This document shows, in pieces, positions 10,762 to 52,792 of a stretch of 64,000 nucleotides of DNA (positions are counted from its first letter, which is position 1; each line of letters begins with the position of its first letter). Origin of the DNA: a virus. Under the pieces are notes generated by a model, which worked only from the letters and a program-made list of their open reading frames with translations, was not told the DNA's origin and did not search any database. The stretch lies in the IMG/VR virus record IMGVR_UViG_3300047471_000189, positions 14,230 through 78,229 of that record. The stretch is one strand, 5' to 3'. A program made the position numbers and the translations under genes.

Positions 10762-11301
10762 CTACTTCTTGTCTGGTTTCTTCTTGGGTATCTGTTTTGC
10801 GCGTTCGTCAAAAAGAACTTTCCCGTTGGGGGCGATAAGCTGATCTTTGTCGTTCCACGTTGGTCCGCCCGGTTTTGCGTAGATGGACTCTCCCGAAAAT
10901 GACTCGTGATACGGAGTCTTCCATGCGTCATTAAAGTGCAGACGATGGTCGTTGGGATTTACCTGTTGAACAGCCCGGGGATCACCGGCCTGACCCGCCT
11001 TGAACCAACCACGATAATCATAACCGGCGTGAGGGGAGTCCGGGTCATCCATGCCGGGATGGGCGGTGCTATACGACTTCCACCATTGCCGGAACTGCTG
11101 TTCGTCTTTCGGTGGCAACGTAGTGACGTATGGTCCCGGTTTCGCGTACTGAGCTTGCCAAGGTGGGGGCTGGGGCTGGGTGGGAGCGTCTGGAACGTAC
11201 CCGGTCGGTGGAGTTACGTCTAGCTTGTAACCCACCGGGGGTATAGGAGTCGACGGAAGAGTTTGAACTTCCGCGAGTTGTCCATTATCTGGACTATCCA
11301 T
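10762..11301 (-). CDS. Pro-rich hypothetical protein, probably virion-associated
   Basis: Coupled to the end of the giant gene; no recognised domain. Confidence 0.6.
   Translation of the reverse strand: MDSPDNGQLAEVQTLPSTPIPPVGYKLDVTPPTGYVPDAPTQPQPPPWQAQYAKPGPYVTTLPPKDEQQFRQWWKSYSTAHPGMDDPDSPHAGYDYRGWFKAGQAGDPRAVQQVNPNDHRLHFNDAWKTPYHESFSGESIYAKPGGPTWNDKDQLIAPNGKVLFDERAKQIPKKKPDKK
11280..11294. repeat. Dispersed 15-bp motif copy
   Basis: GTCCATTATCTGGAC at gene junction. Confidence 0.85.
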
Positions 11302-14300: not shown

Positions 14301-17300
14301 TCATATGACGGACCTTCGTACGTCCATTCGGAACGACCAATAGAAGGAGGAAGGTCGATCTTCGTCTCCCCAACCTTAGCTCCAAACTGTTTTCCAAGTT
14401 TGTTGGCTAGGTCTGGGACGATTTTGTCGTAGAAGCCACGCATACCTTCGCCGCCGACTTTGAGGTCAACACCTGAAAGCTCGTGACTGGCTAAGTGTCT
14501 AAGTTCTACAAACCACCTATTTTCCTTACCACCAACTTCGGAAACCATTATGCTTTCGCGGGGGTTTCCTTCGTTGAGTCTTCGGTCTGGGTGTAGAATA
14601 ACTTCGACTGGCTTCCCGTCAGGGTTTCCGCTAGGGGGAACCATCGCCCGATCCCCGTCCTTCATAGTATCTGTATCGACACGGGGGGTCCGGAGAAGCT
14701 TGTTTGCTGCCTCTTTGCCAATATAGTCAGGAAGTTTTTCAGGAGACGAGTTTTCTGTAAGGATTTGATTTCCGGAGTGATCGAAGGCCCGGAGTGTTCC
14801 GTCTACCGGAGCATACGTAACCCGGCTAATCTGCTTCGACAAATCATACCGAGTGGCTTGGTCTTCTCCCGGTGTCCACAAAACTCCGTCATACCCGTGT
14901 TCCGCAGCGTACCGGACCATCCTCTTCATTAAGAGTTCTGGCCATGTTTTCTTGAAGGGGGCGTCAGGGACCCCGCCATTCTTTTTCTTATTGAGGCTCT
15001 CAAGTTCTCTATCGAGAGTCTCCATTCTAGAAGTTGCTTCGTTAAAAGCAGTACTGTCTTGCTCTTGGCGGTGATACGCTCTTTCCTCTGCCGCTACGTT
15101 TCTTTCTCTAGCTACCTGATAGCGTCGTTGTTCTTCCTCGGGGGTGAGTTCAGATTTGTACCCCTGTGTCCGTCCCTTCTGGTGCCAGTCGCTCTGCAAC
15201 TCTTCGAGGTGCAACAGTTTTTCACCGTTGGGGCCGGTGCGGTCGTTGAAGCGGACGTGTCCTACTACGTTGGGTTCGTCCCAGTGAGAACTGCGGAAGT
15301 TTCCGTGTTCTTCGGTAGAGGAATTAGCGGTGTAGTCGTACTGCACTTGACCGTCTTCGTCCAAGTGAGAGCTAACATACCGATGCGCTTCCACCTCTGT
15401 TGGGAACGTAGCTAGAATTTTGTTCGGATTTGCTGGGTTATAAACGTGGAATCCGGACACTGTCTTCTGGGGCAGCGTCAACAGCATCTCTCGGTAGTTC
15501 TCACCACCGGGAAGGGTGTAGGTGCCGAATTTAGGAGCGTCGTGGGGTTGATCTCGGTGGTCCATCAAGCGGTGGAGGGCCGCTCGTTCCAACTCTCCGA
15601 TGCGGGTAACCTCTTCGTAGTCCGCTTTGGCTCCGGAAGCTTCTGCCTTTTTCATAGCTTCCGAGCGTTCATCTCCGAGGCGGAAGTAGTCGTTTCTTAG
15701 AGCTTCTTCTCTTCCTGCATCCGCGCCCTTCGTAACTTCCTGCACCTGTAGGTTATTAGCTGCCAAGTACTGCCGGACTTCGTCCGGGCGCACCGGTTCC
15801 TTCCCCTTCGAGCGGAGGAATTCGTCGAGACCGGTGTACTTCATTTCGTCCGGTTTTACGCCGTTGTTCTCCAGCATTTTCTGGACGGTGTCGGCGGGCA
15901 TCGGTCCCTGCATCCGGGAGCCGATAATCTGGTTGGATTTCAGGTACCACTGCGGAGCGGGGTTGTCCCGGGCGTACAACGGTATGTACTTGGCACCGAT
16001 TCCGGTACCGCCGCCGATATGCTGATCCATGTATGCCGGGTTGAAGTCTGTTGCCGCTCCAAAATCAAACGCGCTTTGCGGCCCGGACTTCGCTTCTAGG
16101 TGCCGCTGGATTGCCGAGTTGGCGCGGGCGGCTTCGAGTCGACCAGCCGCGTTAAGAAGTCGGTCAGAAACTCCCGAAGTTTCTCCTTGGGCAGGGCGTT
16201 CGGGGACATAGGACTTGAGTTTTTCGTCGAAGGCATTTAGGTCTCCTCCTAATTTGGTTATGAGACCCCGAATTTGGGGGTCATGTTGTAACAGGTCAGC
16301 GAAGTCCGCCGAATGCGCGGCCACGAGTTCTGGGGTCAGAAGACCCTGCTTCACGATCTGCTGTGGAGGTATCCAGCGGTCGTTACCCCATCCGGACAGT
16401 TCGGCGAGGCTCTTGATGAAGCTCCACGCTGCGGCCTGAGCCTGACGCGGGGCTATCCCGTGCGCCTCTGCGGCTTCCCGGACCTTGGCGGACATCGAGT
16501 CGTAGACTGCGGGTTTGTTGATGCGGCCCGGGTCCTGACCGGCGAGCACAGCCATCCACGTGTCGTTAGTTACGCGGTTGACATCCTCTCCGAGATTCTT
16601 GGTAAACGCCGAGACCTTGGGTCCCGATAGTGGTTCTCCTTGCAGAGCACGAATAGCGTTACCCAAACGCGATTGTAAGTCTACGCCCCGGCGCATCATC
16701 TGGTAGAGCTTGGCCGATTTGTTTGGTTTCCCGTCTTTCCAGACAACATCGGTTGGGCGACCAGCCTTGTCCCACTTCGCCCATTGTTCAATGGCCATAA
16801 CAAGGTTTGTCTTGACCGGCTGAACTGGGCTGAGAGCAGCGACGAAATTCAGGAACTTGTCTTTGTCCGCTGGGTGAAGGCGGTCGAATCCCGAATCAAG
16901 GAGGGCGTCGAACGCACGCGACGAACGCTCATACCACATCTGCCCGGCCCGGCCAGCCCTAACGGCGTCGGACCATTCTTCTGCGTCAGGCAGTGAGTTG
17001 AATGCGGCGACTAGTGAGTTCTTCTTTTCGTCGGTGTTGTGTTTTGCTTGTTCCTCGTCGGTGAGGTATTTCTTGATGGAGTTCCAATCACGAGAGTAGA
17101 GACCCGAGAAGTTCTGGCGGAAGTAGTTCACACTGCCGTACGCCGGGGCAGCGTGTTGTCCGCGTCCTTCGTCCCAGTCCCTCAGCTTCCGGAGAATGGT
17201 ATCCTTGTCTCCCGCCGAGGCGCTGAAGCCTTTTTCTCCTTTGGGGTGGATGAATTCGATTTGATAATGCTTGGCCTCTGGGGAAGAAGCAATGGACTGA

Positions 17301-20300
17301 TAAACACGGTCCACTGTGTCCGGGTCGTTCTTCTGAAACTCTACGTTCAATCCGCCGCGCATCGTACGCAGGCGTACTCCACCAGCCTTAAAGAGGGCAG
17401 TGTATGCGTCATCATATCCTTTTGGTACGATCCCGGCTTCATCCATCAGGTCTTCGTGCCAGTCCCCGACAAATGTTTTGTTCTTTCCTGTTACAATAGC
17501 CGCGCTACCGGGCTCTCCCATTCCCGCACGGAGTTTGAGACCGCCAAGCTTTTTGAATTCTTCCTTCTCCTTGGCGGTGAAGTCGCGAGCAGCCAACCCG
17601 AGGGCCGGAACTTGTCCAGATAATGGACTGGTTCCCTCCCGCATCTGTTGCTCGACCGGTGTGTCTTTGAACGTGGCTATTTCTCCGCCCGGGTGGTAGT
17701 ACCCGTCGTAGCCTGCGTCCTTCATCATCCGTTCGTAGATTGTGCCGATTGCCCCTCTCTGGCCTTGAATGCCACGAGCCGCCGCTTCTTGATACGCGGC
17801 AGACATCAGCTTGTCCGGGTCGTCCACCCACGGGTACAGGTTCTCGTTGTTAAAACGAGCTTTGTACTGGTAGGGTTGGCGTTCGTAGAACGGCTCGCCG
17901 TGCGACCCCTCGACACGCCAGTAAGACTTCTTGACGTAGTCCTTGGGGAAGTTGGCTGCCCGTTCCCGTTCCGCGCCCTTCTGCGGGCCCGTGAATTGCT
18001 TCTCGGGTGAGACTGTATCTAGACCTTCTGCTCTAGTGCCGTGAACGGCGTCGACGAAGGGTTCCCTTGGCTCGCGTGTGAGTTTCGATAGCCCCACGTA
18101 ATCGGGCCTTGATTCGAAAGCTTTACGAACTGGACCCCACGTGGGATGCTTTGATTCAAGCTCGGCGAGTCTGGTATCGAGGACCCGCTGGGCGGCGTCC
18201 CGGCTTTCGTAGTCGCCGTGTTGGAATGCTCTGCCATTTGTTTCTCCTATGTTTCCTGCGTCGAGGCGTGAAGCTACTTCCGCGACCTGTGGGCGGTACC
18301 TGTCTCCCGGGCTAACTATGTGGACAAGGTGTCCTCCCGGGATTGGCTCGATGGTGTCGCCGGGGATTCCGTGGGCTTCGAGTACGGCACCAATCTGACT
18401 GGCGTCCGCCGTAGAGAGAGGAACCCGGAACTGGAACAACTTGTCCGAGCCAGCGCCCGGCACGAATCCGGCACCCATGTTCTGGTAACCAGCTTTGGTG
18501 ATGAAGGCGTTGTGGTATTCAACTGCATCGGGGTCTGTACCCGGAGCGAACCTCTGTAGGGTAGAGTTTTCTGCTCCACCTTCCCAGTGGCCAATGGCCG
18601 GACGCACGACTGCCTTGACCCCGGGGAGGGCCTCGGCAAAGTCTTTCGATAATGTTTCAGCGAGTTTCTGCGGGCGGGAATTGAGACGGAACTCTGCGTC
18701 CTGTACATTTGGTAGGTTATGTACGTTCGGGGAGACGAACCCGATGGGGCTCTGAACCTCGTCTTCGTGGAGTTCCCGGGCTGTTAGGCCGGGTTTTGCT
18801 GGGACTTCTGGTTCTGCTTCACCCACTCCAGCAGGGCGGCGTCCCCCTTCTTGAACGCCTGCCACGCTCCGGTCAACTGGTCCTTGCTTGGTAGCGCGAG
18901 TTGCGGCTTCTGTTTGGGCATGTATATCCTCCACGTGTTGACGTGCTATTTCGTTGATTTTGTCGAGGTTGGCAAAAGCGTCTTTGCCGTGCTTTGCTTC
19001 TACCTCTTTGAAGTATTCTTTGATAAACTTGAATTGCTCTTCCGGGGAGATGATTCCCTCGGCCCGGCCAGCCAAGAACTGGGCGGCGGTTTCGACGACA
19101 CGAACAACTGGGCTGGGATCGTACCCAACGTCACTCTGACGCTTTGCCCATTCTGCCGGTATGAGGCCATGAAGCCGGTCCCACTGGGAGCCCGGGGCCA
19201 CGGTAACACTGCCGTCGGGATGTGTGGTGGCTCCGTCGAGATGGTTGACGATGTCCCCGTCCTTGGACAACTCGCGCTGCCAAGTGTGGTGGAGTTCCTC
19301 GGAGACGATGGGGATCGCTTGATCTTTGAGCAACGTTGGGTGGGCGGCGGTGGTGAGCAGCCCTTGCTTGGACAGCGTCGTGGCGGACTGGAACAACTCC
19401 TGAATTTCTTTGTTCTGGCTGACTCCGGCGTTCTCCAGACTGCGGCCCAGAGTCCCGATTTCATCCGGGGCAAAGCTGACGCCCTTGATCGGGTTACCCG
19501 GTTCGGTGGCATGGTTAAACTGCGCCCACGCGCTGGGGGTAAGCCAGACAACGGGGCGACCGTCGGCTCCAATACGAACCTGACCGGCATCGTTCGAGTG
19601 TGCTACTTCTGTCCCGGCCCTCGGCGGCATGTCCGCTGGGGCAATCGGGGTTCCAGTGGGCGGCTGTCCATTATTCGGATCGATTTCATCTGCCCGGCCA
19701 TCTGCCCGTCTTAGAGCAGAAGCGATGGCTGCGGCCTTCTCGGCGTCCGATCCTGTCTCGGCGTGTGCGAAAGTCTCCGCAAGTTCATCATTCTTAAGTG
19801 CTTTAACTTCTGTGGAGTCTCCCAAAACTGCACGCGGTTCTTCGTGCCCGAGCAACTGCCGGGCATGTTGGTCGATCTCTATTGCGTGCTGTTCGGCGAC
19901 GGCGTGCTGGGCTTCCCGCTCTTTGTTCGTGCGGTCGACGGCCAGCCACTCGTCATTCGGGCGGAATGCCCCTTCCTGAATCAGCGGCTTGAATAACTCA
20001 CCGGCTGAGTGGAGGGCGTGGGTAGCCCCGAGAACTCCCAATCCGTATCCGGCGACCATCTCGGTGCCGTACTCCATAGCCTTGTCATAGTCCCCGGACT
20101 TGAGGGCGTCGAGGAACTGGGGGGACATCTGGGCCCCCATCTCAAGCTGTTGGTAAGTAAACCCAGCATTCAGAAGGTAGTTGGCCGTCTTAGCCGCTCT
20201 TGCCGTTGCGGCTATCGGCATAGTGGGAACAGCCTTCCGTATAAGCTGGAAGGACCCACGTTCCATCAGGTTCCCACCAATCAGATCGTGCTCGGTGAGA

Positions 20301-21154
20301 CCGTTCTTGTAAAGGATGTCCTGCCCACGCTTCCACAGCGCAGGGTCGACCCCGGCTTCGCGCACGGCGTCTTCGACCGGCTTGAACGCTTCCCGGGCTT
20401 TCGCGATAGTTGCGGAGGTTTTAGCCAGAGCTTCCCGCTGTATATCCGAAAGCCCCGCCTTCTCCAGAACACTCTGGACGGCTGGCTCCCCAAACATAGT
20501 ATCGGGAACGAGGTTGGAGGTGATCTCCTTAGCCCGCCGTAGAAGGTCCAGATCATGCCCTCCTGCCTCTAGCGCGGCGTTGACGGCAGGTTCTATTGCC
20601 TTCTGGTCCTTGAACGCTTGTATGGCCGCTTCTGAGGCTTTAACGATCTGTGGGATTTCGGTGTCAGTAAACAAACGGGTACCAGTTTCGGTAACCGCTT
20701 CTTTGAGAGCCGTGGCCCCAGCGCTTTCGATAGCTCCGCCGGTACCGAACGTGGCAGCGGTAAGAGCGACAGACAACGGGGAGGTTAATCCGGAGGCAAT
20801 CTTCTCGACACCCCGTTCAAACCCACCGGCACCTTCGCGGTACTCAGGCATTCCGAACAAGCTTTCGGTAACCGGGGTATTCGCCCAGTCCCACGCACGC
20901 TTGTACCACGGCTGGGATTCGTCTTGATATAGGTGAGACGCTGGTCCCTCCGGAGCAGAAGGTTGTCCATTATTCGGACCGGAAAGACCGGCATCGAATA
21001 GGTTTCCAGTAGCTGCTGGGGAAACGGGAGCAGACGGAGAAACCCCTCCGCCCCCGGTTAACCCTTGGTCAAACAGGTTTCCGGAAGCGATAGGGGTTGT
21101 CTTTGTGACAGGAGAAGACTCCAGTCCTTGGTCAAACAGATTGGTATTGGCCAT
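11294..21154 (-). CDS. Giant (3286 aa) polyvalent virion/ejection protein
   Basis: Position after internal virion genes; zincin-like SEELHH, ART-like HGT..GYDG..E, glycosylase-like ALSP..TNDTW..QAAAW and EELQSDW modules. Confidence 0.75.
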   Translation of the reverse strand: MANTNLFDQGLESSPVTKTTPIASGNLFDQGLTGGGGVSPSAPVSPAATGNLFDAGLSGPNNGQPSAPEGPASHLYQDESQPWYKRAWDWANTPVTESLFGMPEYREGAGGFERGVEKIASGLTSPLSVALTAATFGTGGAIESAGATALKEAVTETGTRLFTDTEIPQIVKASEAAIQAFKDQKAIEPAVNAALEAGGHDLDLLRRAKEITSNLVPDTMFGEPAVQSVLEKAGLSDIQREALAKTSATIAKAREAFKPVEDAVREAGVDPALWKRGQDILYKNGLTEHDLIGGNLMERGSFQLIRKAVPTMPIAATARAAKTANYLLNAGFTYQQLEMGAQMSPQFLDALKSGDYDKAMEYGTEMVAGYGLGVLGATHALHSAGELFKPLIQEGAFRPNDEWLAVDRTNKEREAQHAVAEQHAIEIDQHARQLLGHEEPRAVLGDSTEVKALKNDELAETFAHAETGSDAEKAAAIASALRRADGRADEIDPNNGQPPTGTPIAPADMPPRAGTEVAHSNDAGQVRIGADGRPVVWLTPSAWAQFNHATEPGNPIKGVSFAPDEIGTLGRSLENAGVSQNKEIQELFQSATTLSKQGLLTTAAHPTLLKDQAIPIVSEELHHTWQRELSKDGDIVNHLDGATTHPDGSVTVAPGSQWDRLHGLIPAEWAKRQSDVGYDPSPVVRVVETAAQFLAGRAEGIISPEEQFKFIKEYFKEVEAKHGKDAFANLDKINEIARQHVEDIHAQTEAATRATKQGPVDRSVAGVQEGGRRPAGVGEAEPEVPAKPGLTARELHEDEVQSPIGFVSPNVHNLPNVQDAEFRLNSRPQKLAETLSKDFAEALPGVKAVVRPAIGHWEGGAENSTLQRFAPGTDPDAVEYHNAFITKAGYQNMGAGFVPGAGSDKLFQFRVPLSTADASQIGAVLEAHGIPGDTIEPIPGGHLVHIVSPGDRYRPQVAEVASRLDAGNIGETNGRAFQHGDYESRDAAQRVLDTRLAELESKHPTWGPVRKAFESRPDYVGLSKLTREPREPFVDAVHGTRAEGLDTVSPEKQFTGPQKGAERERAANFPKDYVKKSYWRVEGSHGEPFYERQPYQYKARFNNENLYPWVDDPDKLMSAAYQEAAARGIQGQRGAIGTIYERMMKDAGYDGYYHPGGEIATFKDTPVEQQMREGTSPLSGQVPALGLAARDFTAKEKEEFKKLGGLKLRAGMGEPGSAAIVTGKNKTFVGDWHEDLMDEAGIVPKGYDDAYTALFKAGGVRLRTMRGGLNVEFQKNDPDTVDRVYQSIASSPEAKHYQIEFIHPKGEKGFSASAGDKDTILRKLRDWDEGRGQHAAPAYGSVNYFRQNFSGLYSRDWNSIKKYLTDEEQAKHNTDEKKNSLVAAFNSLPDAEEWSDAVRAGRAGQMWYERSSRAFDALLDSGFDRLHPADKDKFLNFVAALSPVQPVKTNLVMAIEQWAKWDKAGRPTDVVWKDGKPNKSAKLYQMMRRGVDLQSRLGNAIRALQGEPLSGPKVSAFTKNLGEDVNRVTNDTWMAVLAGQDPGRINKPAVYDSMSAKVREAAEAHGIAPRQAQAAAWSFIKSLAELSGWGNDRWIPPQQIVKQGLLTPELVAAHSADFADLLQHDPQIRGLITKLGGDLNAFDEKLKSYVPERPAQGETSGVSDRLLNAAGRLEAARANSAIQRHLEAKSGPQSAFDFGAATDFNPAYMDQHIGGGTGIGAKYIPLYARDNPAPQWYLKSNQIIGSRMQGPMPADTVQKMLENNGVKPDEMKYTGLDEFLRSKGKEPVRPDEVRQYLAANNLQVQEVTKGADAGREEALRNDYFRLGDERSEAMKKAEASGAKADYEEVTRIGELERAALHRLMDHRDQPHDAPKFGTYTLPGGENYREMLLTLPQKTVSGFHVYNPANPNKILATFPTEVEAHRYVSSHLDEDGQVQYDYTANSSTEEHGNFRSSHWDEPNVVGHVRFNDRTGPNGEKLLHLEELQSDWHQKGRTQGYKSELTPEEEQRRYQVARERNVAAEERAYHRQEQDSTAFNEATSRMETLDRELESLNKKKNGGVPDAPFKKTWPELLMKRMVRYAAEHGYDGVLWTPGEDQATRYDLSKQISRVTYAPVDGTLRAFDHSGNQILTENSSPEKLPDYIGKEAANKLLRTPRVDTDTMKDGDRAMVPPSGNPDGKPVEVILHPDRRLNEGNPRESIMVSEVGGKENRWFVELRHLASHELSGVDLKVGGEGMRGFYDKIVPDLANKLGKQFGAKVGETKIDLPPSIGRSEWTYEGPSYDSLELIKMGNKWLKEGGPVSLPHQAQAIANDMKLSGYSFEDAMRRNGSLALAEKLGGKMNMAVPESKSVPYFPITDSMRESVLKQGQPLFARGGPDNGLPSNIDDMIRDNKFKNMPKEYKDRVIRAYERVASGTSPDRVLQTAKYLRDEQDKNWQLGSANDLLHNHIEDYMTRVYKDENPKGKLILSDSKQGKFATDVNMARQRVYDSTVTALLKSPKELFLDPVQTTAQGRAQLIKAAANRQLIDKLRDAGTRASDGRPAVVLSGTGRVVTGQNGEDPKTFIDPNRVRKINLSDDMVRGLKKNGDFDRFIADGTLKDITPYVHPGNIRAAIARLEDRAESKEAQYDQVGNNKLRTDLMYLKSMLNNNDFSGLKEFNDAQPKKYAWDPQDYISLDNGAMKGWNFVTNDSAGNGVLVRSDIKVHPEFAEYLKNRLGLNPSTIGQNPVGKALLGAGTKLKHTLLSLSPFHMVQIALRGVMTGVNPFTLHAPDLIHGAKIDPMDPNSPTKMYKMAEQGLTVGTDYRAMQEHSEGVSAGGGALRMIPGVGKVLAGSMDWFQDLLFRRYIPAIKATAAEHMFDEYQRLHPEWSTDKVAKMAATHANDSFGGINWKAMGRSATTQDWGRLMLLAPDWLESEMRSGVRLFNRDEGGLGRAQVAKMALGLWGIARVLNLLTTGNAHYEAPFGLAVKNKEGKETIFGIRTLPTDLLHAADDPVGFIKGRLSPTVRMGQELLTQRDQFGRKLAPEDMWVDIFRNMAPIAAQSIGQAVTGTGPEIGNLGQAWKASGGTAQVYNTPAQKLAAELASNHNEDGPVDSTQMARHRRVMQLEDQLRSGQITWPDLVKLTYQTDQLKESELKQIQNNFKKTQGIPPDMASLYTRAARLPAAEYLKLYDVLNPQEKAALATLTLQVQKRYLNKVKKEMTPAERAKDPTFNRFMRMIPQQQQQAAPQPQSSYTPPPTAQSPLQKEVAYLYTATHPQTGHRVGSDDGQNWFDHQTGEAVNG
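14008..14022. repeat. Dispersed 15-bp motif copy
   Basis: GTCCATTATCTGGAC, intragenic (GPDNG). Confidence 0.85.
17614..17628. repeat. Dispersed 15-bp motif copy
   Basis: GTCCAGATAATGGAC, intragenic (SPLSG). Confidence 0.85.
19666..19680. repeat. Dispersed 15-bp motif copy (1 mismatch)
   Basis: GTCCATTATTCGGAT, intragenic (DPNNG). Confidence 0.8.
20965..20979. repeat. Dispersed 15-bp motif copy
   Basis: GTCCATTATTCGGAC, intragenic (GPNNG). Confidence 0.85.
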
Positions 21155-45338: not shown

Positions 45339-45971
45339 TTACGAGATTGTGCTGGACCGGCTTCCGGTTTCCTTCACCGGCTTAAACACGGGACAGGCGC
45401 AGAGCTTGCCGCGCTCTACGTGGGCCGCTGCGACCCCTCCCGGGTGAACTAATACTCCGTGGTGGTCGCCCATTGTGATCGACCCGAGTTCATGGACAAT
45501 ACTGCTGTGTCCAACGAGTAGGGGAGGGATTCCGCAGTCCATAAATATGTGGAGAGCTTCTTGGAAGCAGGGAGCTATCCGGCTTTTGAAATCGTTCAGG
45601 GATTCGCCGCCGGGGATCACAGAGTCCGGGTTGTCCAGATAAACTTGCAGCCGGGCTTCAGATTCCTTGTTTCTCGGAGTGCCGGAGAATGAGCCAACGT
45701 TGAGGGCCCGGAGTTGTTCAGAAGAGTGGACAGGGAGTCCTTTAGCTGCGGCTATGATCTCGGCTGTTTTAGTCGCTCGTTGTTTGTCGGAGCATAGGAT
45801 GCAGGAGATATCGATGTCGGAGAACAGGTCCGCGAGCTTGTGCGCCTGCTTCAGGCCGGTTGCATCGAGAGGGGGATTGGCGTTCCCTCGAAACATTCCA
45901 GAAGCGTTGAGGACCGTCTGTCCGTGCCGAACGACATAGAAGGCGGTTTGCTTATTCTGCTGGAGAGGCAT
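45339..45971 (-). CDS. Histidine phosphatase (phosphoglycerate mutase superfamily)
   Basis: VRHGQT..N, SD..RA..TA, PGGES, VGH. Confidence 0.9.
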   Translation of the reverse strand: MPLQQNKQTAFYVVRHGQTVLNASGMFRGNANPPLDATGLKQAHKLADLFSDIDISCILCSDKQRATKTAEIIAAAKGLPVHSSEQLRALNVGSFSGTPRNKESEARLQVYLDNPDSVIPGGESLNDFKSRIAPCFQEALHIFMDCGIPPLLVGHSSIVHELGSITMGDHHGVLVHPGGVAAAHVERGKLCACPVFKPVKETGSRSSTIS

Positions 45972-46374
45972 CAACGGGTTCCTTTGGCTTGCGCGTTCTC
46001 TGGGGCTGGGGCGGTACGGGATCGGCGGGGGCGGGCGGAACATCAGGCTCCGTTTCGGGTACATGGCCGTCAGAAAACATCGTAGCGGTGGTTACGCTCG
46101 CGACCAGAGGACCCGAGTTCTTCGCAGGGGCTTCCTCGGGGGCCGGGTACTCAAACTGGAGGCCGTCAAGTTCTACGTCTAACTCAGCTTTGAGGTCGGC
46201 CAACTCTGGATGGTTAGCCAGAGAGGATTTGCGGACAACCAAGACCTCCACAGCTTGCCGACGGTAGTCGCGCTCGGCGCAATCGTTTCGGGCTATGTCT
46301 CGCAGGACGTAATCAGGAAGGAGTTTCAGGTGAGCGTGGTAGTCAAAGAATGGGTCTTTAAGGCGGTCGGTCAT
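45952..46374 (-). CDS. Hypothetical protein
   Basis: GAGG RBS; Pro-rich tail. Confidence 0.6.
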   Translation of the reverse strand: MTDRLKDPFFDYHAHLKLLPDYVLRDIARNDCAERDYRRQAVEVLVVRKSSLANHPELADLKAELDVELDGLQFEYPAPEEAPAKNSGPLVASVTTATMFSDGHVPETEPDVPPAPADPVPPQPQRTRKPKEPVDASPAE

Positions 46375-46946: not shown

Positions 46947-47162
46947 CTAGCGAACTCTTGTAATCTCGTGCTTGCCTTGGATGTTCTTGAAGAAGAAGTT
47001 TCCGTGGCTGTCGGCCTGCTGGTATGCCTGAGCTTTCTCAGGTGGAACGTCGTGGACAGCAAATGTCCCGTTGTTGAGGTCCAGAGTCAGGCGCTGCGCC
47101 TGTGGATCGTACCGGGCCCCTTGTACATGCGAACTGGGCTTCAGCTTGAGCGGTTGATCCAC
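46947..47162 (-). CDS. KTSC-domain protein
   Basis: SSHV....YD.....L.....NG......VP.......ADSHG.FF..NI pattern. Confidence 0.85.
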   Translation of the reverse strand: MDQPLKLKPSSHVQGARYDPQAQRLTLDLNNGTFAVHDVPPEKAQAYQQADSHGNFFFKNIQGKHEITRVR

Positions 47163-47314: not shown

Positions 47315-47334
47315 GTAGCTCCTTATGAAATTCC

Positions 47335-47434
47335 CAGAGAGAACAGACGCTAACGGAGACGCCCTTTCGGGCATTCTTAGCTCCCGGGTTAGGGGAGTTT
47401 TAGGCAAGAAGTAACCGTCAACTACACTACTCTG
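47335..47434 (-). ncRNA. Y-like RNA copy 3 (two-hairpin insert)
   Basis: CAGAG/CTCTG closing stem; UAGUGUAG, GGUUACUUC and CGUCUGUUC shared with the YrlA-type copy; GCCC-GAAA-GGGC hairpin. Confidence 0.75.
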
Positions 47435-47442
47435 AGTAAAAC

Positions 47443-47579
47443 TACTGGAAGGAACAGACGAACTCGGAGATTTTAGCGTTTTACCTTTAAACTACCGGCC
47501 CCCGAAGGGACCGACCGGGACTCGAACCCAGAACTCTTTCATTAGCATTGAAGTAACCGAACTCTACACCATTCCAGTA
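47443..47579 (-). ncRNA. yrlA: YrlA-type Y RNA with circularly permuted tRNA-like domain
   Basis: 8-bp closing stem; T arm CUGGG-UUCGAGU-CCCGG, acceptor stem capped by cUUCGg, then UA-GUUU-AAAGGUA-AAAC D arm; immediately downstream of the Ro60 gene. Confidence 0.88.
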
Positions 47580-47585
47580 AAAGAT

Positions 47586-47603
47586 GTGGGGGCGAACCCC
47601 CAC
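47586..47603 (-). terminator. GC hairpin between the Ro60 stop and the Y RNA (terminator or processing signal)
   Basis: GTGGGG-GTTCGC-CCCCAC followed by ATCTTTT on the minus strand. Confidence 0.5.
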
Positions 47604-47605
47604 GG

Positions 47606-48931
47606 TTAGGATTGTCTTTCAAGTTCCTGAATGTAGTCTACGACAGCTTCGGACCATCCATCAATCCGGACCCAGTCTCTTCCGCCGATTCCGTTCTGGT
47701 AAGAAGCAACGTTCAGCATGTATCCCTTGGTCCCGACTAGCGGGTTTCCGATGTTGGTTGCGGATTGCTCGTCGGTTAAGACGATAACCCGGTCGTAGCC
47801 CTTCGAAGCAGCCAGCATAACCGCCGCCTGTGTGTCAGTTCCGTGTCCGAACAACCCGCTGCCGATTGCGTCGTTTAACGCGAACCCGCGACGGGGAGGA
47901 ACGAACCCGGCAGTCGATCCGAAGGCTATGATCTGGCAGTCGTCGCAGACTTCACGAAGCAACATGGCCAGAGCAGCCGCCGCGTCCCGACGGGAGATTT
48001 CCGACTTTCCGGATACAGTCGACGACATAGAACCAGAGGTATCTACGCAGAGGACCGTCTTTCCAGACAACTTAGGTGCGTCGGCCAAGCACTTGAACAT
48101 AGCCGCTTCCAACTGCGGTTCGAGCGACGGAGCGTACTTTGCAGCCGAGATGAACCGGAAAGGAAGGACACGTTCGACCTTCATCTTCGCCAGACCCTCG
48201 CGGATCAGGCTATCCGATACTCCGGACCCCTGCATGTTACGCAGGTTGCGAAGCAAAGCCATTGCCCCGAGCTTGTTCTCGGACAGCAGGCGCTCAAATG
48301 TTCCCTTCTTGTCAGAGCCAGCGCTCAAGGAAACTTCCCATGTGTCCGGGGTTTCCAGAGTCTGGTCGACGATCTTCTTGAACAGCACAGTCTCGTCGTT
48401 GGACGAAGGCTTTGCGTGTGTCAAGAACAGAACGTCCCGCAGCTTGATGGCCGCGTCTGACTTCTGCCACTTGGCGAATGAGTACTCGTTGAACTTGTTG
48501 AAGGCCGCAGCCAGACCCTTCTTGACCTGAGCCGAGAGGGGCTGCTTGCCATCCTTCCAGTAAATCGCGAGAAATTCCGCGATCTCGTCCGGACGCTGGA
48601 TGACACGGGTGAGGGTTTCCCCTACCAGCTTGCGGGCTTCCTTGTTCGGGTGCCGGGCAAGTTCCCGTACCAAGAACAGCGGGATGTGCCGCAGCTTCAT
48701 CTTTTCGCGGGCTTCGACAGCGATCTGAGACACTTCAAACGGATCGGCTTCGAGCAACGCTTCGCGGACGTACTGGGCGTGAGAAACTCCGTCCACGTAG
48801 AAGCTGTCTTCCCACAACAGCGAGGCCATCACCAACCGGCGAAGCTTCTGGCTCTTGTTCAGACGGGCAGCCTGTGCTCCCTCGTGGGTGCGCTCCAGTA
48901 CCGCCGATGCTGCATTCGTGTTCGTTCTCAT
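47606..48931 (-). CDS. rsr: Ro60/TROVE-domain RNA-binding protein with C-terminal vWA domain
   Basis: LWEDSFY, LRHIP, QRPDE, FNEYSFAKW, LRDVLFLTHAKP, TWEV.LS, ALLRNLRN, LPFRF; vWA MIDAS VDTSGSM and LTDEQ. Confidence 0.93.
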   Translation of the reverse strand: MRTNTNAASAVLERTHEGAQAARLNKSQKLRRLVMASLLWEDSFYVDGVSHAQYVREALLEADPFEVSQIAVEAREKMKLRHIPLFLVRELARHPNKEARKLVGETLTRVIQRPDEIAEFLAIYWKDGKQPLSAQVKKGLAAAFNKFNEYSFAKWQKSDAAIKLRDVLFLTHAKPSSNDETVLFKKIVDQTLETPDTWEVSLSAGSDKKGTFERLLSENKLGAMALLRNLRNMQGSGVSDSLIREGLAKMKVERVLPFRFISAAKYAPSLEPQLEAAMFKCLADAPKLSGKTVLCVDTSGSMSSTVSGKSEISRRDAAAALAMLLREVCDDCQIIAFGSTAGFVPPRRGFALNDAIGSGLFGHGTDTQAAVMLAASKGYDRVIVLTDEQSATNIGNPLVGTKGYMLNVASYQNGIGGRDWVRIDGWSEAVVDYIQELERQS

Positions 48932-48961: not shown

Positions 48962-49029
48962 AGACCGGGAATAAGCGGAAAGGGTAGTTTTTCATGCAAG
49001 AGAAGTAACCCTAGCCTTCACCACGGTCT
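48962..49029 (-). ncRNA. Minimal Y-like RNA (68 nt) in the rsr 5' leader
   Basis: AGACCG/CGGTCT closing stem; UGGUGAAG, GGUUACUUC and CGCUUAUUC core motifs without a tRNA-like domain. Confidence 0.7.
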
Positions 49030-49091: not shown

Positions 49092-49328
49092 TTATATCGA
49101 CCGTTCTTCTTTGTCCCAAGTCTGCGGCATGTGGGTAGATACTTCGGCCCGGAGTATCGGAAGCTTTTTCTCATCTCTTGCGACTTGAAATGCCTTAGTG
49201 AAAAGTTCCGTGTCAGACTTACTATCCACTTCTTCTTGGCTGACTAACCCTAACCCGAGGGCGATCCTCAGTTGCAAGTAATGCGGCAAGTTCATGAAAT
49301 CGTAGGCCAAACGCCTCTCTTCCGTCAT
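49092..49328 (-). CDS. Hypothetical protein
   Basis: ATGA-coupled to the HNH gene. Confidence 0.55.
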   Translation of the reverse strand: MTEERRLAYDFMNLPHYLQLRIALGLGLVSQEEVDSKSDTELFTKAFQVARDEKKLPILRAEVSTHMPQTWDKEERSI

Positions 49329-49927
49329 GCTGCTACCAACTCTTTCTCAATTTGAGAAACTTGGTCCATCCAGTCGGCTATACGGCGGTGTTCTTCCGAG
49401 GTTCCGTTGTTCTTGATTCTGTTCGCACGATAAGATATGACGGCTATATTGCCGGGGACGTACCCAAGTTCGGGATTGACGCGATCAAGGCTTGGACAAG
49501 CGTCTCTGTTGTCGTCTGCGGAACCGCGAACCAATTTGATTCCGAGTATGGGACAGAATTCGGGAATTACGATATCGGTGTCGGCGATTGTGATTGGTAA
49601 CCCAAACTTCTTTGCCCTTTTACGGGCTTCATAAAGCAGGGCCTTTTCTGGTTTCTCGTTGGCATACCGGCGGTTGTACTCCAGAAAGTAGTCTCTGTTT
49701 TCCGCTTTGTAGACTTTATTTCTCTCCGATATTTTCTCGGCATTATTCCGGTTGTACGCCTTACGGGTTGCTTTTACCCGGTCCTCATTACCGGATGTCC
49801 ACTCTTTCGTATAAGCTCTGTGGCATTCTTTGCAGTAACTTCCACGACCATCTGGGGATTTAGAACACTTGGTCATTTCATCGAGAGGTTTTGCCTGCTC
49901 ACATTTCGTACAAATTTTAGTTTCCAT
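49325..49927 (-). CDS. Free-standing HNH-type (homing) endonuclease
   Basis: CTKC...YCKEC zinc finger; CPILG, SLDRV...GYVPGNI.VIS.RAN. Confidence 0.8.
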   Translation of the reverse strand: METKICTKCEQAKPLDEMTKCSKSPDGRGSYCKECHRAYTKEWTSGNEDRVKATRKAYNRNNAEKISERNKVYKAENRDYFLEYNRRYANEKPEKALLYEARKRAKKFGLPITIADTDIVIPEFCPILGIKLVRGSADDNRDACPSLDRVNPELGYVPGNIAVISYRANRIKNNGTSEEHRRIADWMDQVSQIEKELVAA

Positions 49928-50077: not shown

Positions 50078-51061
50078 TTACGAAGAACTTGTTTCGCTCT
50101 GGAGCCGACGGAGCGTCATTGTCGAGCCCGGACGAAGTGTATTTGTGTAGCGCACGTTGTAACTGACCCAGCCGCCGATTTGACGGGCGGGATCACTTAC
50201 GCTGCCTTGCTCGGGTGCGCTCTGGATGAACAGCTTGTAGTTCTTACTGCCGTCCTCCGGGTTCTTTCCGAGAAAAACTGAAAATATGGCGTCGTCGCCG
50301 AAGATGTACGTATTGTAATACGTATTTCCGGAGATGGTCACCGTCGGTGCCGTGCTGGTCTGCTTGAACGTAACACCGGCGAACGAAATGACGTCATCGT
50401 TCTTGGGCAGTTCGAACAGCATGTTCCGCATCGAGTCCGAACGCTTCACAATGTCAGTCAGACCATTGAAAGACGTGTCGTTCAGGATGTCGCGGACCAC
50501 GTTCGGGTGGATCACGCCACCAAACTTGTTGTCCACGAGCGGGCGAGCATTGACGCTAACCAAGGACTGGACCGCAGAGCGAAGGTTGTTCGCGGTGAGG
50601 TACGATCCGTTGGCCAACTGAATGTTCACCAAGCTGTCGACCGCAACAGCCGAGTCAGCGGTAAGCTGGACAAGGGTGTTCAGGGTCAAAGCGAGGCGGT
50701 AGTTCAGTTCGTTCGCGAGGTTCTGGAGCAGACCCGGGTCATCGATTGCCACGTCCAGAGCGAGGTCGGAGCTATTGATGAAGTCAGCGTACTGACCAAT
50801 CGTAGCCACGATCTTGTTGCTGGACTCGGAGATCGGCGAGCCTACCGTGCCTTCAGCAGCCTGATTAAGGTTTGCTGCAAGCAGGGCGTAGGTGTAGAAC
50901 TGGATCTGGTTGCCTTGGCGCAACGGCAGCGGACGCTGCTTGGTCATGCTAAGGAAGGGGGTCTGGGCCTTGAGGTTAGGAATTGCTTCCCGCTCATAGT
51001 GGATTGCGACTAGGTTCGGGAGCGCCCCAGACGTGACGATTGATGCTGGTGAATAACTCAT
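50078..51061 (-). CDS. Major capsid protein (HK97 fold, N4-gp56-like)
   Basis: 327 aa after scaffold; LPLRQGNQIQF, EG, QYADFI..SD, IHP, DP..Q.G motifs; strong AAGGA RBS. Confidence 0.85.
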   Translation of the reverse strand: MSYSPASIVTSGALPNLVAIHYEREAIPNLKAQTPFLSMTKQRPLPLRQGNQIQFYTYALLAANLNQAAEGTVGSPISESSNKIVATIGQYADFINSSDLALDVAIDDPGLLQNLANELNYRLALTLNTLVQLTADSAVAVDSLVNIQLANGSYLTANNLRSAVQSLVSVNARPLVDNKFGGVIHPNVVRDILNDTSFNGLTDIVKRSDSMRNMLFELPKNDDVISFAGVTFKQTSTAPTVTISGNTYYNTYIFGDDAIFSVFLGKNPEDGSKNYKLFIQSAPEQGSVSDPARQIGGWVSYNVRYTNTLRPGSTMTLRRLQSETSSS

Positions 51062-52309: not shown

Positions 52310-52792
52310 TTAGTAGATTTTGTTTTCGTTTCCTTCGATAAGTTGAAGGGGAGGGGGATAGAAAGGAACGTATCCGTATTCTCCGGGAATTTCCTTATCA
52401 TAGAGTTCCAAGATTTCTCTGGCCCACCTAACAAGGTCTTCCGGTCTTTGGCCGTATGGTTGTTTACTTACCCATAGCTCCAAGTTTTCTGGAGAGTTGT
52501 CCTGCTTTCGGCCATTTTTGTGGTGAACGTTTTCGGAGGGAAGCAGGGGTCTCCCAAGAAGCTCGCTCATGATAAATCTATGTTCAGGGACCCTCCCCGA
52601 AGAGTCTGAATTAGGATGATCTGGTTTAAATAAGAGGAGATAACCTTTGCTTAAACTGCCGCTCCCCTTGGGGCGAACTATCTTTATTTCTCGGCCTGTT
52701 CGCTTCTGTTCGTAGTGGGTCTTGCACATCCCTCCGCATCTCGCTTTTTTATAACAGGGTTCGAAGGAACATTTCATTTCGTTCTGGTTCAT
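52310..52792 (-). CDS. Free-standing HNH endonuclease
   Basis: EHRFIM...GRPL...ENVHHKNG.KQDN..ENLEL; N-terminal C...C......MC..HY. Confidence 0.9.
   Translation of the reverse strand: MNQNEMKCSFEPCYKKARCGGMCKTHYEQKRTGREIKIVRPKGSGSLSKGYLLLFKPDHPNSDSSGRVPEHRFIMSELLGRPLLPSENVHHKNGRKQDNSPENLELWVSKQPYGQRPEDLVRWAREILELYDKEIPGEYGYVPFYPPPLQLIEGNENKIY

What the first reader, a model, noticed from the sequence alone, without database searches (positions are those of the whole stretch)
47443..47579. Circularly permuted tRNA mimic (T arm, UUCG-capped acceptor stem, D arm; no anticodon arm or CCA end)
Seen: CUGGG-UUCGAGU-CCCGG, then UCGGUCCC-UUCG-GGGGCCGG, then UA-GUUU-AAAGGUA-AAAC. Known: this is the YrlA architecture. 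Inference: in a phage, a non-chargeable tRNA elbow mimic could decoy host tRNA-targeting defence nucleases/toxins or engage tRNA-binding machinery.
Basis: partly seen in the sequence, partly recalled or inferred. Interest (0 to 1): 0.7.

Follow-up and report, generated by a model that had tools for sequence, protein, structure and literature searches.

The report
Phage YrlA-type Y RNA beside Ro60
This 135-base stretch is a small RNA gene of a known kind, a Y RNA with a built-in tRNA look-alike, sitting just after the phage's gene for its partner protein Ro60, so it is real but not new.

Summary
They form the core of a 135-nt RNA, 47578-47444.

A covariance model built from 18 relatives, without this window, matches the RNA end to end (117 bits, E about 1e-26). 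Across 90 distinct family members 95.6% of cells are paired, and 27 of 30 pairs show double changes. The tertiary Levitt pair 15:48 also covaries; here it is A15:U48.

The gene directly upstream on the same strand (48931-47606) is a Ro60/TROVE+vWA protein. In 73 of 90 other viral hits, a Ro60 gene lies beside the RNA on the same strand. This is therefore a YrlA-type Y RNA, a class described beside Ro60 in bacteria and 22 phages in 2014. This scan has met the kind before on other DNA.

- **"No anticodon arm" is doubtful.** A 3-bp hairpin with a 7-nt loop (AUGCUAA) abuts a covarying 2-bp helix in exact tRNA register.
- **The nuclease-decoy idea is untested.** Partnership with Ro60 is the better-supported reading.
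- **No expression data** could be obtained.

Verdict: a new member of a known kind, of modest interest.

The parts
47444..47578 (-). Whole YrlA-type Y RNA, 135 nt, from the first base of the closing stem to the last
   Evidence: R1 model built without the window: 117.1 bits, E 1.8e-26, model positions 1-144. All helices verified base by base.
47572..47578 (-). Outer closing stem, 5' strand ACUGGAA. It pairs with 47450-47444. It is followed by a bulged U (47571) and GG (47570-47569), which pair with CC (47452-47451).
   Evidence: In the family this helix is 92.7% paired, and all 8 pairs show double changes.
47564..47570 (-). GGUGUAG, in the position of the published GNCGAAN0-1G motif (the proposed Ro60 contact). 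It is a variant with U for C and U for A.
   Evidence: It aligns with GGCGAAG or GGCGUAG in relatives. The motif is defined in PMC4201824.
47557..47564 (-). Helix 2, 5' strand GAGUUCGG. It pairs with CCGAGUUC at 47467-47460 (8 bp).
   Evidence: In the family it is 92.1% paired, and 7 of 8 pairs show double changes.
47550..47558 (-). GGUUACUUC, nearly invariant across the family. UUAC corresponds to the published YUAY.
   Evidence: Invariant columns. Also present in the two stem-only Y units of this window.
47539..47551 (-). V hairpin, here read as anticodon-arm-like: UCA / AUGCUAA / UGA. It is followed by A42 A43 (47538-47537).
   Evidence: Covarying closing pair (MI 0.83). Loop signature U2, R6, A7 in 44 of 90 relatives against a shuffled mean of 1.7. 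tRNA-register test.
47532..47536 (-). Variable-loop equivalent GAGUU (positions 44-48). U48 is the Levitt partner of A15.
   Evidence: 15:48 is G:C in 58, A:U in 27 and a non-complementary combination in 2 of 91 rows, the other 4 having a gap on one side.
47515..47531 (-). T arm: CUGGG / UUCGAGU / CCCGG
   Evidence: In the family it is 100% paired, and 4 of 5 pairs show double changes.
47495..47514 (-). Acceptor-like stem of 8 bp closed by a UUCG tetraloop (47506-47503). There is no free 3' end and no CCA.
   Evidence: In the family it is 98% paired, and all 4 modelled pairs show double changes.
47475..47494 (-). U8 A9, the D arm GUUU / AAAGGUA / AAAC (47492-47478), then G26 C27 U28
   Evidence: D stem 100% paired in the family. 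U8, A14 and G18 G19 are near invariant. The 28:42 pair is formed in 84 of 90 relatives.
47451..47474 (-). 3' side of the Ro60-site module: linker AAAAUCU, helix 2 3' strand, internal loop GUCUGUU, then CC
   Evidence: The conserved CGYYUGUUCC block appears in the alignment.
47606..48931 (-). Context: Ro60 (TROVE + vWA) gene, 441 aa, directly upstream on the same strand
   Evidence: Pfam TROVE 8.9e-12 and vWA_Ro60 1.4e-7. PHROG 850, 4.3e-50. Best solved relative is Thermus phage phiLo Ro60, 9KOP/9L5Y, E 1.5e-23.
47586..47603 (-). Context: terminator-like GC hairpin with a short U run, between the Ro60 stop codon and the Y RNA
   Evidence: a consensus scan only.

Best explanation
The stretch encodes a YrlA-type Y RNA of about 135 nt, the non-coding partner of the Ro60 protein encoded directly upstream.

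**Shown:**
- The 5' and 3' ends pair into a long stem. It carries the conserved motifs GGUGUAG, GGUUACUUC and CGUCUGUUCC.
- The same stem module recurs in two further tRNA-less units beside this Ro60 gene.
- The middle folds as a tRNA body in permuted order: T arm, sealed acceptor stem, D arm, with the tRNA tertiary-contact residues in place.

**Inferred from published Ro60/Y RNA work:**
- The stem module docks on the outer face of the Ro60 ring.
- The tRNA-like module presents a tRNA elbow, and probably a whole tRNA shape, to a second protein. That protein would be host polynucleotide phosphorylase or another tRNA-binding enzyme.
- The phage thereby redirects or dampens host RNA decay or quality control during infection.
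- The RNA is probably released by processing from a transcript that starts at the promoter-like site upstream of Ro60 and reads through the hairpin after the Ro60 stop codon.
For: - **Family match:** A model built from 18 relatives without the window hits it over its full length at 117.1 bits, E 1.8e-26. It ranks 16th of 91 hits.
- **Covariation across 90 distinct members:** 95.6% of cells are paired, against 65.4% when shuffled and 38-49% when slid. 27 of 30 pairs show double changes.
- **Tertiary pair:** Levitt 15:48 covaries (G:C 58, A:U 27). The window has A15:U48.
- **Partner gene:** Ro60/TROVE+vWA lies directly upstream on the same strand.
- **Synteny in viruses:** A DNA pattern search that did not use Ro60 gave 90 other viral hits. 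Of these, 66 lie upstream and 7 downstream of a Ro60 homologue on the same strand.
- **Synteny in bacteria:** The same holds for 36 of 52 bacterial hits.
- **Close relative:** L104 (Ro60 81% identical) has the same downstream arrangement.
- **Stem-only units:** The stem module alone matches two more units in the window, at 47.8 and 38.7 bits.
- **Literature:** YrlA beside Ro60 in 254 bacteria and 22 phages (PMC4201824). Crystal structure of the tRNA-like fold (10.1101/312249). Phage phiLo Ro60 binds its own Y-like RNAs and host PNPase (PMC12135203).
Against: - There is no expression or binding datum. No RNA run was listed for this DNA.
- Rfam YrlA reaches only 27.7 bits against a cut-off of 69, and only over the T/acceptor/D core.
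- The 5' motif departs from GNCGAA at two positions, and it lacks the CGAA whose mutation weakened binding in phiLo.
- The minimum-energy fold of the single sequence (-40.5 kcal/mol) differs from the comparative structure (-31.3) and does not form the AU-rich D stem. The z-score is only -1.9.
- A terminator-like hairpin lies between Ro60 and the RNA, and no promoter-like site of its own was found.
- The RNA lies downstream of Ro60, the minority arrangement (7 of 74 same-strand cases with Ro60).
Confidence: 0.87

Rival explanations
1. Decoy: the tRNA-shaped module acts mainly as bait or a sponge for host tRNA-cleaving defence nucleases or toxins. Ro60 would serve only as a carrier, or not be needed at all.
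For: - The RNA keeps a tRNA elbow and, on my reading, an anticodon-like hairpin with a 7-nt U-turn-type loop.
- The loop triplet varies freely among relatives, as expected if different baits are displayed.
- The 78-kb record has no real tRNA gene that could replace cut tRNAs.
Against: - No nuclease, repair ligase or defence-related gene was tied to the RNA here.
- The same RNA type sits beside Ro60 in many bacterial chromosomes, where a phage counter-defence role does not apply.
- The loop differs even from the closest relative, L104.
- The hairpin also occurs in stem-only units that lack a tRNA body.
Confidence: 0.07
2. A permuted or split tRNA gene whose transcript is cut (for example in the UUCG loop by RNase P) and matured into a working, chargeable tRNA.
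For: - Rfam tRNA gives a weak full-length match over 47575-47507 (19.9 bits).
- M. smegmatis YrlA is cut by RNase P and receives CCA in vitro (PMC4201824).
- The composite anticodon stem and the 5-nt variable loop are in tRNA register.
Against: - ARAGORN finds no tRNA.
- The tRNA score is below the cut-off of 29.
- The acceptor stem is sealed by a tetraloop, with no CCA and no spacer.
- The chain leaves the anticodon stem between positions 28 and 29 to form the conserved Ro60-type stem.
- C27-A43 is mismatched here.
Confidence: 0.02
3. A cis-acting 3' UTR element of the Ro60 mRNA (a stabiliser, terminator or autoregulatory Ro60 site) that is never released as a separate RNA.
For: - It lies only 27 nt after the Ro60 stop codon and has no promoter-like site of its own.
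- A long closing stem followed by a short U run could end or protect transcripts.
Against: - In about nine of ten relatives the same RNA lies upstream of Ro60, so a 3' UTR role cannot be general.
- Characterised YrlA RNAs are discrete species processed from operon transcripts (PMC4201824).
Confidence: 0.03
4. A decaying remnant of a tRNA dimer, or a tRNA-derived phage attachment site, with no function of its own.
For: - A T arm plus a 3' acceptor strand is what attP cores often carry.
- A dimeric-tRNA origin of YrlA has been proposed (10.1101/312249).
Against: - Every helix is kept by compensatory change across 90 members.
- Linkage to Ro60 is tight.
- The model match runs over the full length.
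Confidence: 0.01

Closest known systems
YrlA (Y RNA-like A; Rfam RF02553; Salmonella Typhimurium YrlA, PDB 6CU1; Chen et al. 2014, PMC4201824; Wang et al. 2018, 10.1101/312249)
   Same: - Encoded beside Ro60 on the same strand.
- The ends pair into a stem carrying the Ro60-site motif.
- The order is T arm, sealed acceptor-like stem, D arm.
- U8, A14, R15, G18 G19, the T-loop residues and the Levitt pair are kept.
- The YUAY element is present (UUAC here).
- An extra hairpin lies 5' of the T arm (the published 'V').
   Different: - It scores 27.7 bits against the Rfam cut-off of 69, and only the core aligns.
- The 5' motif is GGUGUAG, not GNCGAA.
- The acceptor-like stem is 8 bp (6 in Salmonella).
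- The stem that continues to the Ro60 site does not run straight on from the D/T core. It is joined through 5-nt and 7-nt linkers, next to a hairpin that sits in anticodon-arm register.
- It lies downstream of Ro60.
Y RNA-like RNAs Yrl1 and Yrl2 of Thermus phage phiLo with phage Ro60 (PDB 9KOP, 9L5Y; PMC12135203)
   Same: - A phage-encoded Ro60 with its own Y-like RNAs next to the gene.
- This window's Ro60 has phiLo Ro60 as its best solved relative (E 1.5e-23).
- More than one Y-like RNA per locus.
   Different: - The phiLo RNAs lie upstream of Ro60 and are described as stem-bulge-stem RNAs with a CGAA motif. No tRNA-like module is reported.
- Binding to Ro60 and host PNPase was shown there and is only inferred here.
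Mycobacteriophage YrlA-like RNAs (for example phage ET08) and unannotated Y RNAs of Streptomyces phages such as Comrade
   Same: - Phage YrlA with a tRNA-like core near a Ro-like gene.
- The core of this RNA is 77% identical over 91 nt to an unannotated stretch about 0.7 kb upstream of the Ro-like gene of Comrade and five related phages.
   Different: - Those are actinophages with large tRNA arrays. This phage has no tRNA gene in the 78 kb held, and it is unrelated to any isolated phage (terminase at most 27% identical).
Deinococcus radiodurans Yrn1 and metazoan Y RNAs
   Same: - A stem formed by the two ends that carries the Ro60 site.
- A variable internal module that tethers an effector (PNPase in Deinococcus).
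   Different: - Yrn1 has only partial tRNA features, in a different order.
- Metazoan Y RNAs have no tRNA-like domain.
True tRNAs, permuted tRNA genes of algae and archaea, tmRNA and viral tRNA-like structures
   Same: - An L-shape-forming T and D loops.
- A variable loop of 5 nt.
- An apparent 5-bp stem with a 7-nt loop in anticodon position.
   Different: - No free acceptor end or CCA.
- Not detected by ARAGORN.
- The backbone is interrupted within the anticodon stem.
- No evidence of charging.

Membership tests
YrlA-type Y RNA | Encoded within 4 kb of a Ro60 (TROVE) gene, on the same strand | tested here: met
   The RNA starts 27 nt after the stop codon of a TROVE+vWA gene on the minus strand.
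YrlA-type Y RNA | T-like stem-loop with a GGUUCGANUCC core | tested here: met
   CUGGG-UUCGAGU-CCCGG at 47531-47515.
YrlA-type Y RNA | [quoted passage not shown] | tested here: met
   An 8-bp stem with a UUCG loop at 47514-47495. The stem covaries in the family.
YrlA-type Y RNA | D-like stem-loop with U8, A14, R15, G18 G19 and A21 | tested here: met
   UA-GUUU-AAAGGUA-AAAC at 47494-47478. These positions are near invariant in 91 relatives.
YrlA-type Y RNA | Levitt pair 15:48 kept as G:C or A:U | tested here: met
   A15:U48 here. In the family, G:C 58 and A:U 27 of 91.
YrlA-type Y RNA | 5' GNCGAAN0-1G motif (the proposed Ro60 contact) | tested here: inconclusive
   GGUGUAG occupies the aligned position. 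Two of the specified bases differ (C to U, A to U). Relatives carry GGCGAAG, GGCGUAG or GGUGUAG.
YrlA-type Y RNA | Conserved YUAY before the V region | tested here: met
   UUAC at 47556-47553, within the invariant GGUUACUUC.
YrlA-type Y RNA | 5' and 3' ends pair into a long stem | tested here: met
   A 7-bp outer stem, GG/CC and an 8-bp helix, all standard pairs. 15 of 16 pairs show double changes in the family.
YrlA-type Y RNA | Score at or above the Rfam RF02553 gathering cut-off (69 bits) | tested here: not met
   27.7 bits over model positions 28-81 only. Five clear relatives beside Ro60 also score only 24-49 bits, so the curated model under-detects this branch.
YrlA-type Y RNA | Bound by Ro60/Rsr in cells, and carrying tRNA-type modifications (D, pseudouridine) | not testable with these tools
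   This needs immunoprecipitation and modification mapping.
tRNA | Free acceptor end, continuous cloverleaf, and detection by tRNA finders | tested here: not met
   ARAGORN finds none. Rfam tRNA gives 19.9 bits against a cut-off of 29. The acceptor stem is sealed by a tetraloop.

The most novel reading that the evidence does not exclude
In this RNA, and in about half of its viral and bacterial relatives, the hairpin published as the 'V' arm is not a variable arm. It is the lower part of an anticodon arm.
- It stacks on a covarying 2-bp helix (27-28 with 42-43).
- The result is a 5-bp stem, a 7-nt loop with U33, R37 and A38, and a 5-nt variable loop, all in exact tRNA register.
- On this reading YrlA-type RNAs imitate a whole tRNA.
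- The chain is opened between nucleotides 28 and 29, where the Ro60-binding stem is attached.
Probability: 0.35. Interest if true: 0.55.

Novelty: new member of a known kind. Interest (0 to 1): 0.3.

Why it matters
It adds one more phage, from soil and unrelated to any isolate, to the viruses that carry their own Ro60 and Y RNAs. It also shows that the curated Rfam model misses this large branch, so such RNAs go unannotated in phage genomes. If the hairpin is indeed an anticodon-arm look-alike, the domain that the solved YrlA structure shows without an anticodon loop would, in most members, be a full tRNA imitation. That would narrow the search for the still unknown effector that the tRNA-like module recruits.

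Tried and rejected
- **Rfam at gathering thresholds:** no hit in the window.
- **ARAGORN:** no tRNA or tmRNA.
- **Single-sequence folding:** it gave a different structure with a weak z-score, so I relied on comparative evidence.
- **My first hand pairing, UAGA with UCUG:** the alignment replaced it with the 8-bp helix GAGUUCGG/CCGAGUUC.
- **MAFFT and RNAalifold:** they did not resolve the V hairpin, because it comes in two length classes. I therefore tested it by counting back from the T stem.
- **Alternative helix ACUUC with GAGGU** (here ACUU with GAGU, 4 of 5 pairs): considered and not excluded, because its 5' strand is invariant. It is disfavoured because 28:42 covaries (MI 0.78) and because stem-only units lack the 3' partner.
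- **Sequencing runs:** no RNA holder was listed. Laying four DNA runs gave no informative variation inside the RNA.
- **Enrichment of particular loop triplets:** GUU is commonest in both sets, but this was not pursued, since it is only about twice the expectation from base composition.
- **Permuted tRNA gene, attP remnant and 3' UTR element:** considered and rejected as main readings (see the rival explanations).

Full report
**Observation.**
- T arm CUGGG-UUCGAGU-CCCGG, 47531-47515.
- Acceptor-like stem UCGGUCCC-UUCG-GGGGCCGG, 47514-47495.
- UA plus D arm GUUU-AAAGGUA-AAAC, 47494-47478.

No ORF of 40 aa or more overlaps the stretch. ARAGORN finds no tRNA in the window. Rfam at curated thresholds finds nothing. 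At relaxed thresholds Rfam YrlA (RF02553) matches 47534-47478 at 27.7 bits (cut-off 69), E 0.0013, over model positions 28-81, which are the T, acceptor-like and D arms.

**Surroundings.**
- The ORF directly upstream on the same strand (48931-47606, 441 aa) is a Ro60 protein. It matches Pfam TROVE and the Ro60 vWA domain and PHROG 850 'RNA-binding protein' at 4.3e-50.
- Its best solved relative is the Ro60 of Thermus phage phiLo, at E 1.5e-23.
- The window is part of a 78-kb viral record, estimated 71% complete.
- Capsid, portal and terminase genes lie close by.
- The terminase is at most 27% identical to that of any isolated phage.
- The DNA occurs in rhizosphere and soil metagenomes.

**Relatives.**
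- Ro60 relatives in viral contigs carry sub-threshold YrlA matches just upstream of the gene.
- They share an invariant GGUUACUUC exactly 21 nt before GGUUCGA.
- A scan of viral contigs for that DNA pattern, which makes no use of Ro60, returned more than 120 loci.
- I aligned 18 clean relatives without the window and built covariance model R1.
- R1 hits the window at 47587-47443 over its full length: 117.1 bits, E 1.8e-26. It ranks 16th among 91 hits in 100 sources.
- Of the 90 other viral hits, 66 lie upstream and 7 downstream of a Ro60 homologue on the same strand. One is on the opposite strand, and 16 have no Ro60 in the piece fetched.
- The same pattern is common in bacterial genomes (Streptomyces, Nocardia, Acidobacteriota, Pseudomonas and others). 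There, 36 of 52 R1 hits lie upstream of Ro60.
- The family is therefore the general YrlA family, not a phage speciality.

**Structure.** RNAalifold on 19 sequences recovers all six helices. On the 91-hit alignment:
- 95.6% of cells form standard pairs, against 65.4% in shuffles and 38-49% when the partners are slid.
- 27 of 30 pairs show changes on both sides.
- The covariation score is 0.79, against 0.21 in shuffles.
- This alignment was fitted to the model, so the counts lean towards the structure. The slid controls and the independent RNAalifold result argue that the signal is real.

The tertiary Levitt pair 15:48 is G:C in 58 rows and A:U in 27; two rows are non-complementary and four have a gap on one side. 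The window has A15:U48. U8, A14, G18 G19, A21 and the T-loop residues are near invariant.

Read 5' to 3' on the minus strand, the RNA in this window runs as follows; every stem pair except C27-A43 is standard:
1. Outer stem ACUGGAA/UUCCAGU.
2. Bulged U.
3. GG/CC.
4. Internal loop: UGUA on the 5' strand (completing the GGUGUAG motif), opposite GUCUGUU on the 3' strand.
5. 8-bp helix GAGUUCGG/CCGAGUUC.
6. Linker UUACU.
7. Hairpin UCA-AUGCUAA-UGA.
8. A42 A43.
9. GAGUU (positions 44-48).
10. T arm.
11. Sealed acceptor stem.
12. U8 A9.
13. D arm.
14. G26, C27 U28.
15. Linker AAAAUCU, then back into the 8-bp helix.

**The anticodon question.** Here, and in most relatives, a small hairpin precedes the variable-loop equivalent.
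- Its closing pair covaries (MI 0.83).
- The nucleotide two after G26 covaries with the nucleotide just 3' of the hairpin (MI 0.78, six pair types).
- I counted back from the T stem, so the result does not depend on the alignment, and assumed a 5-nt variable loop. The pairs 27-43, 28-42, 29-41, 30-40 and 31-39 are then formed in 74, 84, 64, 63 and 66 of 90 viral members.
- All five pairs are formed in 45 members. Other variable-loop lengths give 0-14, and shifted 3' partners give 0-12.
- In the viral set the loop has U33 in 61, R37 in 76 and A38 in 76 of 90 members.
- In 52 bacterial members all five pairs form in 24, against 0-7 in other registers.
- A scan for hairpins with a stem of 3 bp or more and a 7-nt loop carrying U2, R6 and A7 finds 44 of 90, against a shuffled mean of 1.7.
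- In the window four of the five pairs form; C27-A43 is a mismatch.

I read this as a composite anticodon arm whose 5' strand is interrupted between positions 28 and 29, where the Ro60-type stem is attached.

Reasons for caution:
- The hairpin also occurs in stem-only units that have no tRNA body.
- An alternative helix, ACUUC with GAGGU, cannot be excluded because its 5' strand never varies.
- No three-dimensional evidence exists.
- Chen et al. (PMC4201824) call this hairpin 'V' and draw it as a variable arm.

**Locus.** R1 also matches two tRNA-less units through the stem module alone:
- 49039-48960 at 47.8 bits, in the Ro60 leader, just after a promoter-like site (TATACA, 17 nt, TACAAT, with TG before the -10 element).
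- 47442-47332 at 38.7 bits, directly after this RNA.

The closest relative, L104 (Ro60 81% identical), has four tandem units downstream of Ro60. The one homologous to the window's second downstream unit shows a compensatory change in an inner hairpin. A terminator-like hairpin (47603-47586) separates the Ro60 stop codon from this RNA, and no promoter-like site of its own was found.

**Mechanism.**
- Shown: family membership by structure, the tRNA-type tertiary signature, and physical linkage to Ro60.
- Inferred from the literature: the stem module docks on Ro60, and the tRNA-like module recruits a tRNA-binding or RNA-decay protein.
- The supporting cases are PNPase in Deinococcus, Salmonella and phage phiLo, and the action of tRNA modification enzymes and RNase P on YrlA (PMC4201824, PMC12135203).
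- The decoy idea is compatible with the anticodon-like hairpin but has no direct support. The presence of the same RNA beside Ro60 in bacterial chromosomes argues that its core role is not phage counter-defence.

**Expression.** No RNA run holding this DNA was listed, and DNA contigs added nothing. Expression remains untested.

**Novelty.** YrlA RNAs beside Ro60 have been described in 254 bacteria and 22 phages since 2014. A phage Ro60 with its Y-like RNAs has been studied biochemically (PMC12135203). Earlier notes of this scan report the same kind on other DNA and anticodon-arm look-alikes on phage Ro60-partner RNAs. This is a new member of a known kind. The only less ordinary points are the downstream placement, the failure of the curated Rfam model on this branch, and the anticodon-register hairpin.

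Noticed in passing
window 48962-49029 (-): A 68-nt stem-only Y unit lies in the Ro60 leader, between a promoter-like site (49073-49045) and the Ro60 start codon. R1 scores it at 47.8 bits through the stem module alone.
   Followed up: partly
window 47333-47436 (-): A second downstream Y unit has the same closing-stem design, but two hairpins replace the tRNA body (R1 38.7 bits with filters off). It is conserved in L104, with a compensatory change CUCCC/GGGAG to CUCCU/AGGAG.
   Followed up: partly
L104:430-910 (-): The closest relative (Ro60 81% identical) carries four tandem Y units downstream of Ro60. One of them is a minimal unit that still has a hairpin with the 7-nt loop CUGAUAA.
   Followed up: partly
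window 47507-47575 (-); L009:2065-2130: The 5' half of the Y RNA, up to the acceptor 3' strand, scores as a weak full-length tRNA (19.9 bits here; 28.8 bits in L009, just under the cut-off of 29). This fits the published idea that YrlA arose from a tRNA dimer.
   Followed up: partly
L004, L005, L006, L010, L011: Clear YrlA-type RNAs beside Ro60 score only 24-49 bits with Rfam RF02553 (cut-off 69). This branch is therefore missed by standard annotation. The Streptomyces phage Comrade copy is unannotated in GenBank.
   Followed up: partly
window 49325-49927 (-) and 52310-52792 (-): Endonuclease VII/HNH-type genes flank the major head protein gene (50078-51061). The Ro60/Y RNA block sits inside the virion gene arm.
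   Followed up: no
window 11294-21154 (-): A very long ORF of 3286 aa, with further ORFs of 1650, 1310 and 1190 aa nearby. None was examined.
   Followed up: no
window 45339-46064 (-) and 46947-47162 (-): A histidine phosphatase (His_Phos_1) and a KTSC-domain protein are co-oriented downstream of the Y RNAs. Among the proteins scanned (two batches covering about 43.5-58.8 kb), none was an RtcB-type ligase.
   Followed up: no
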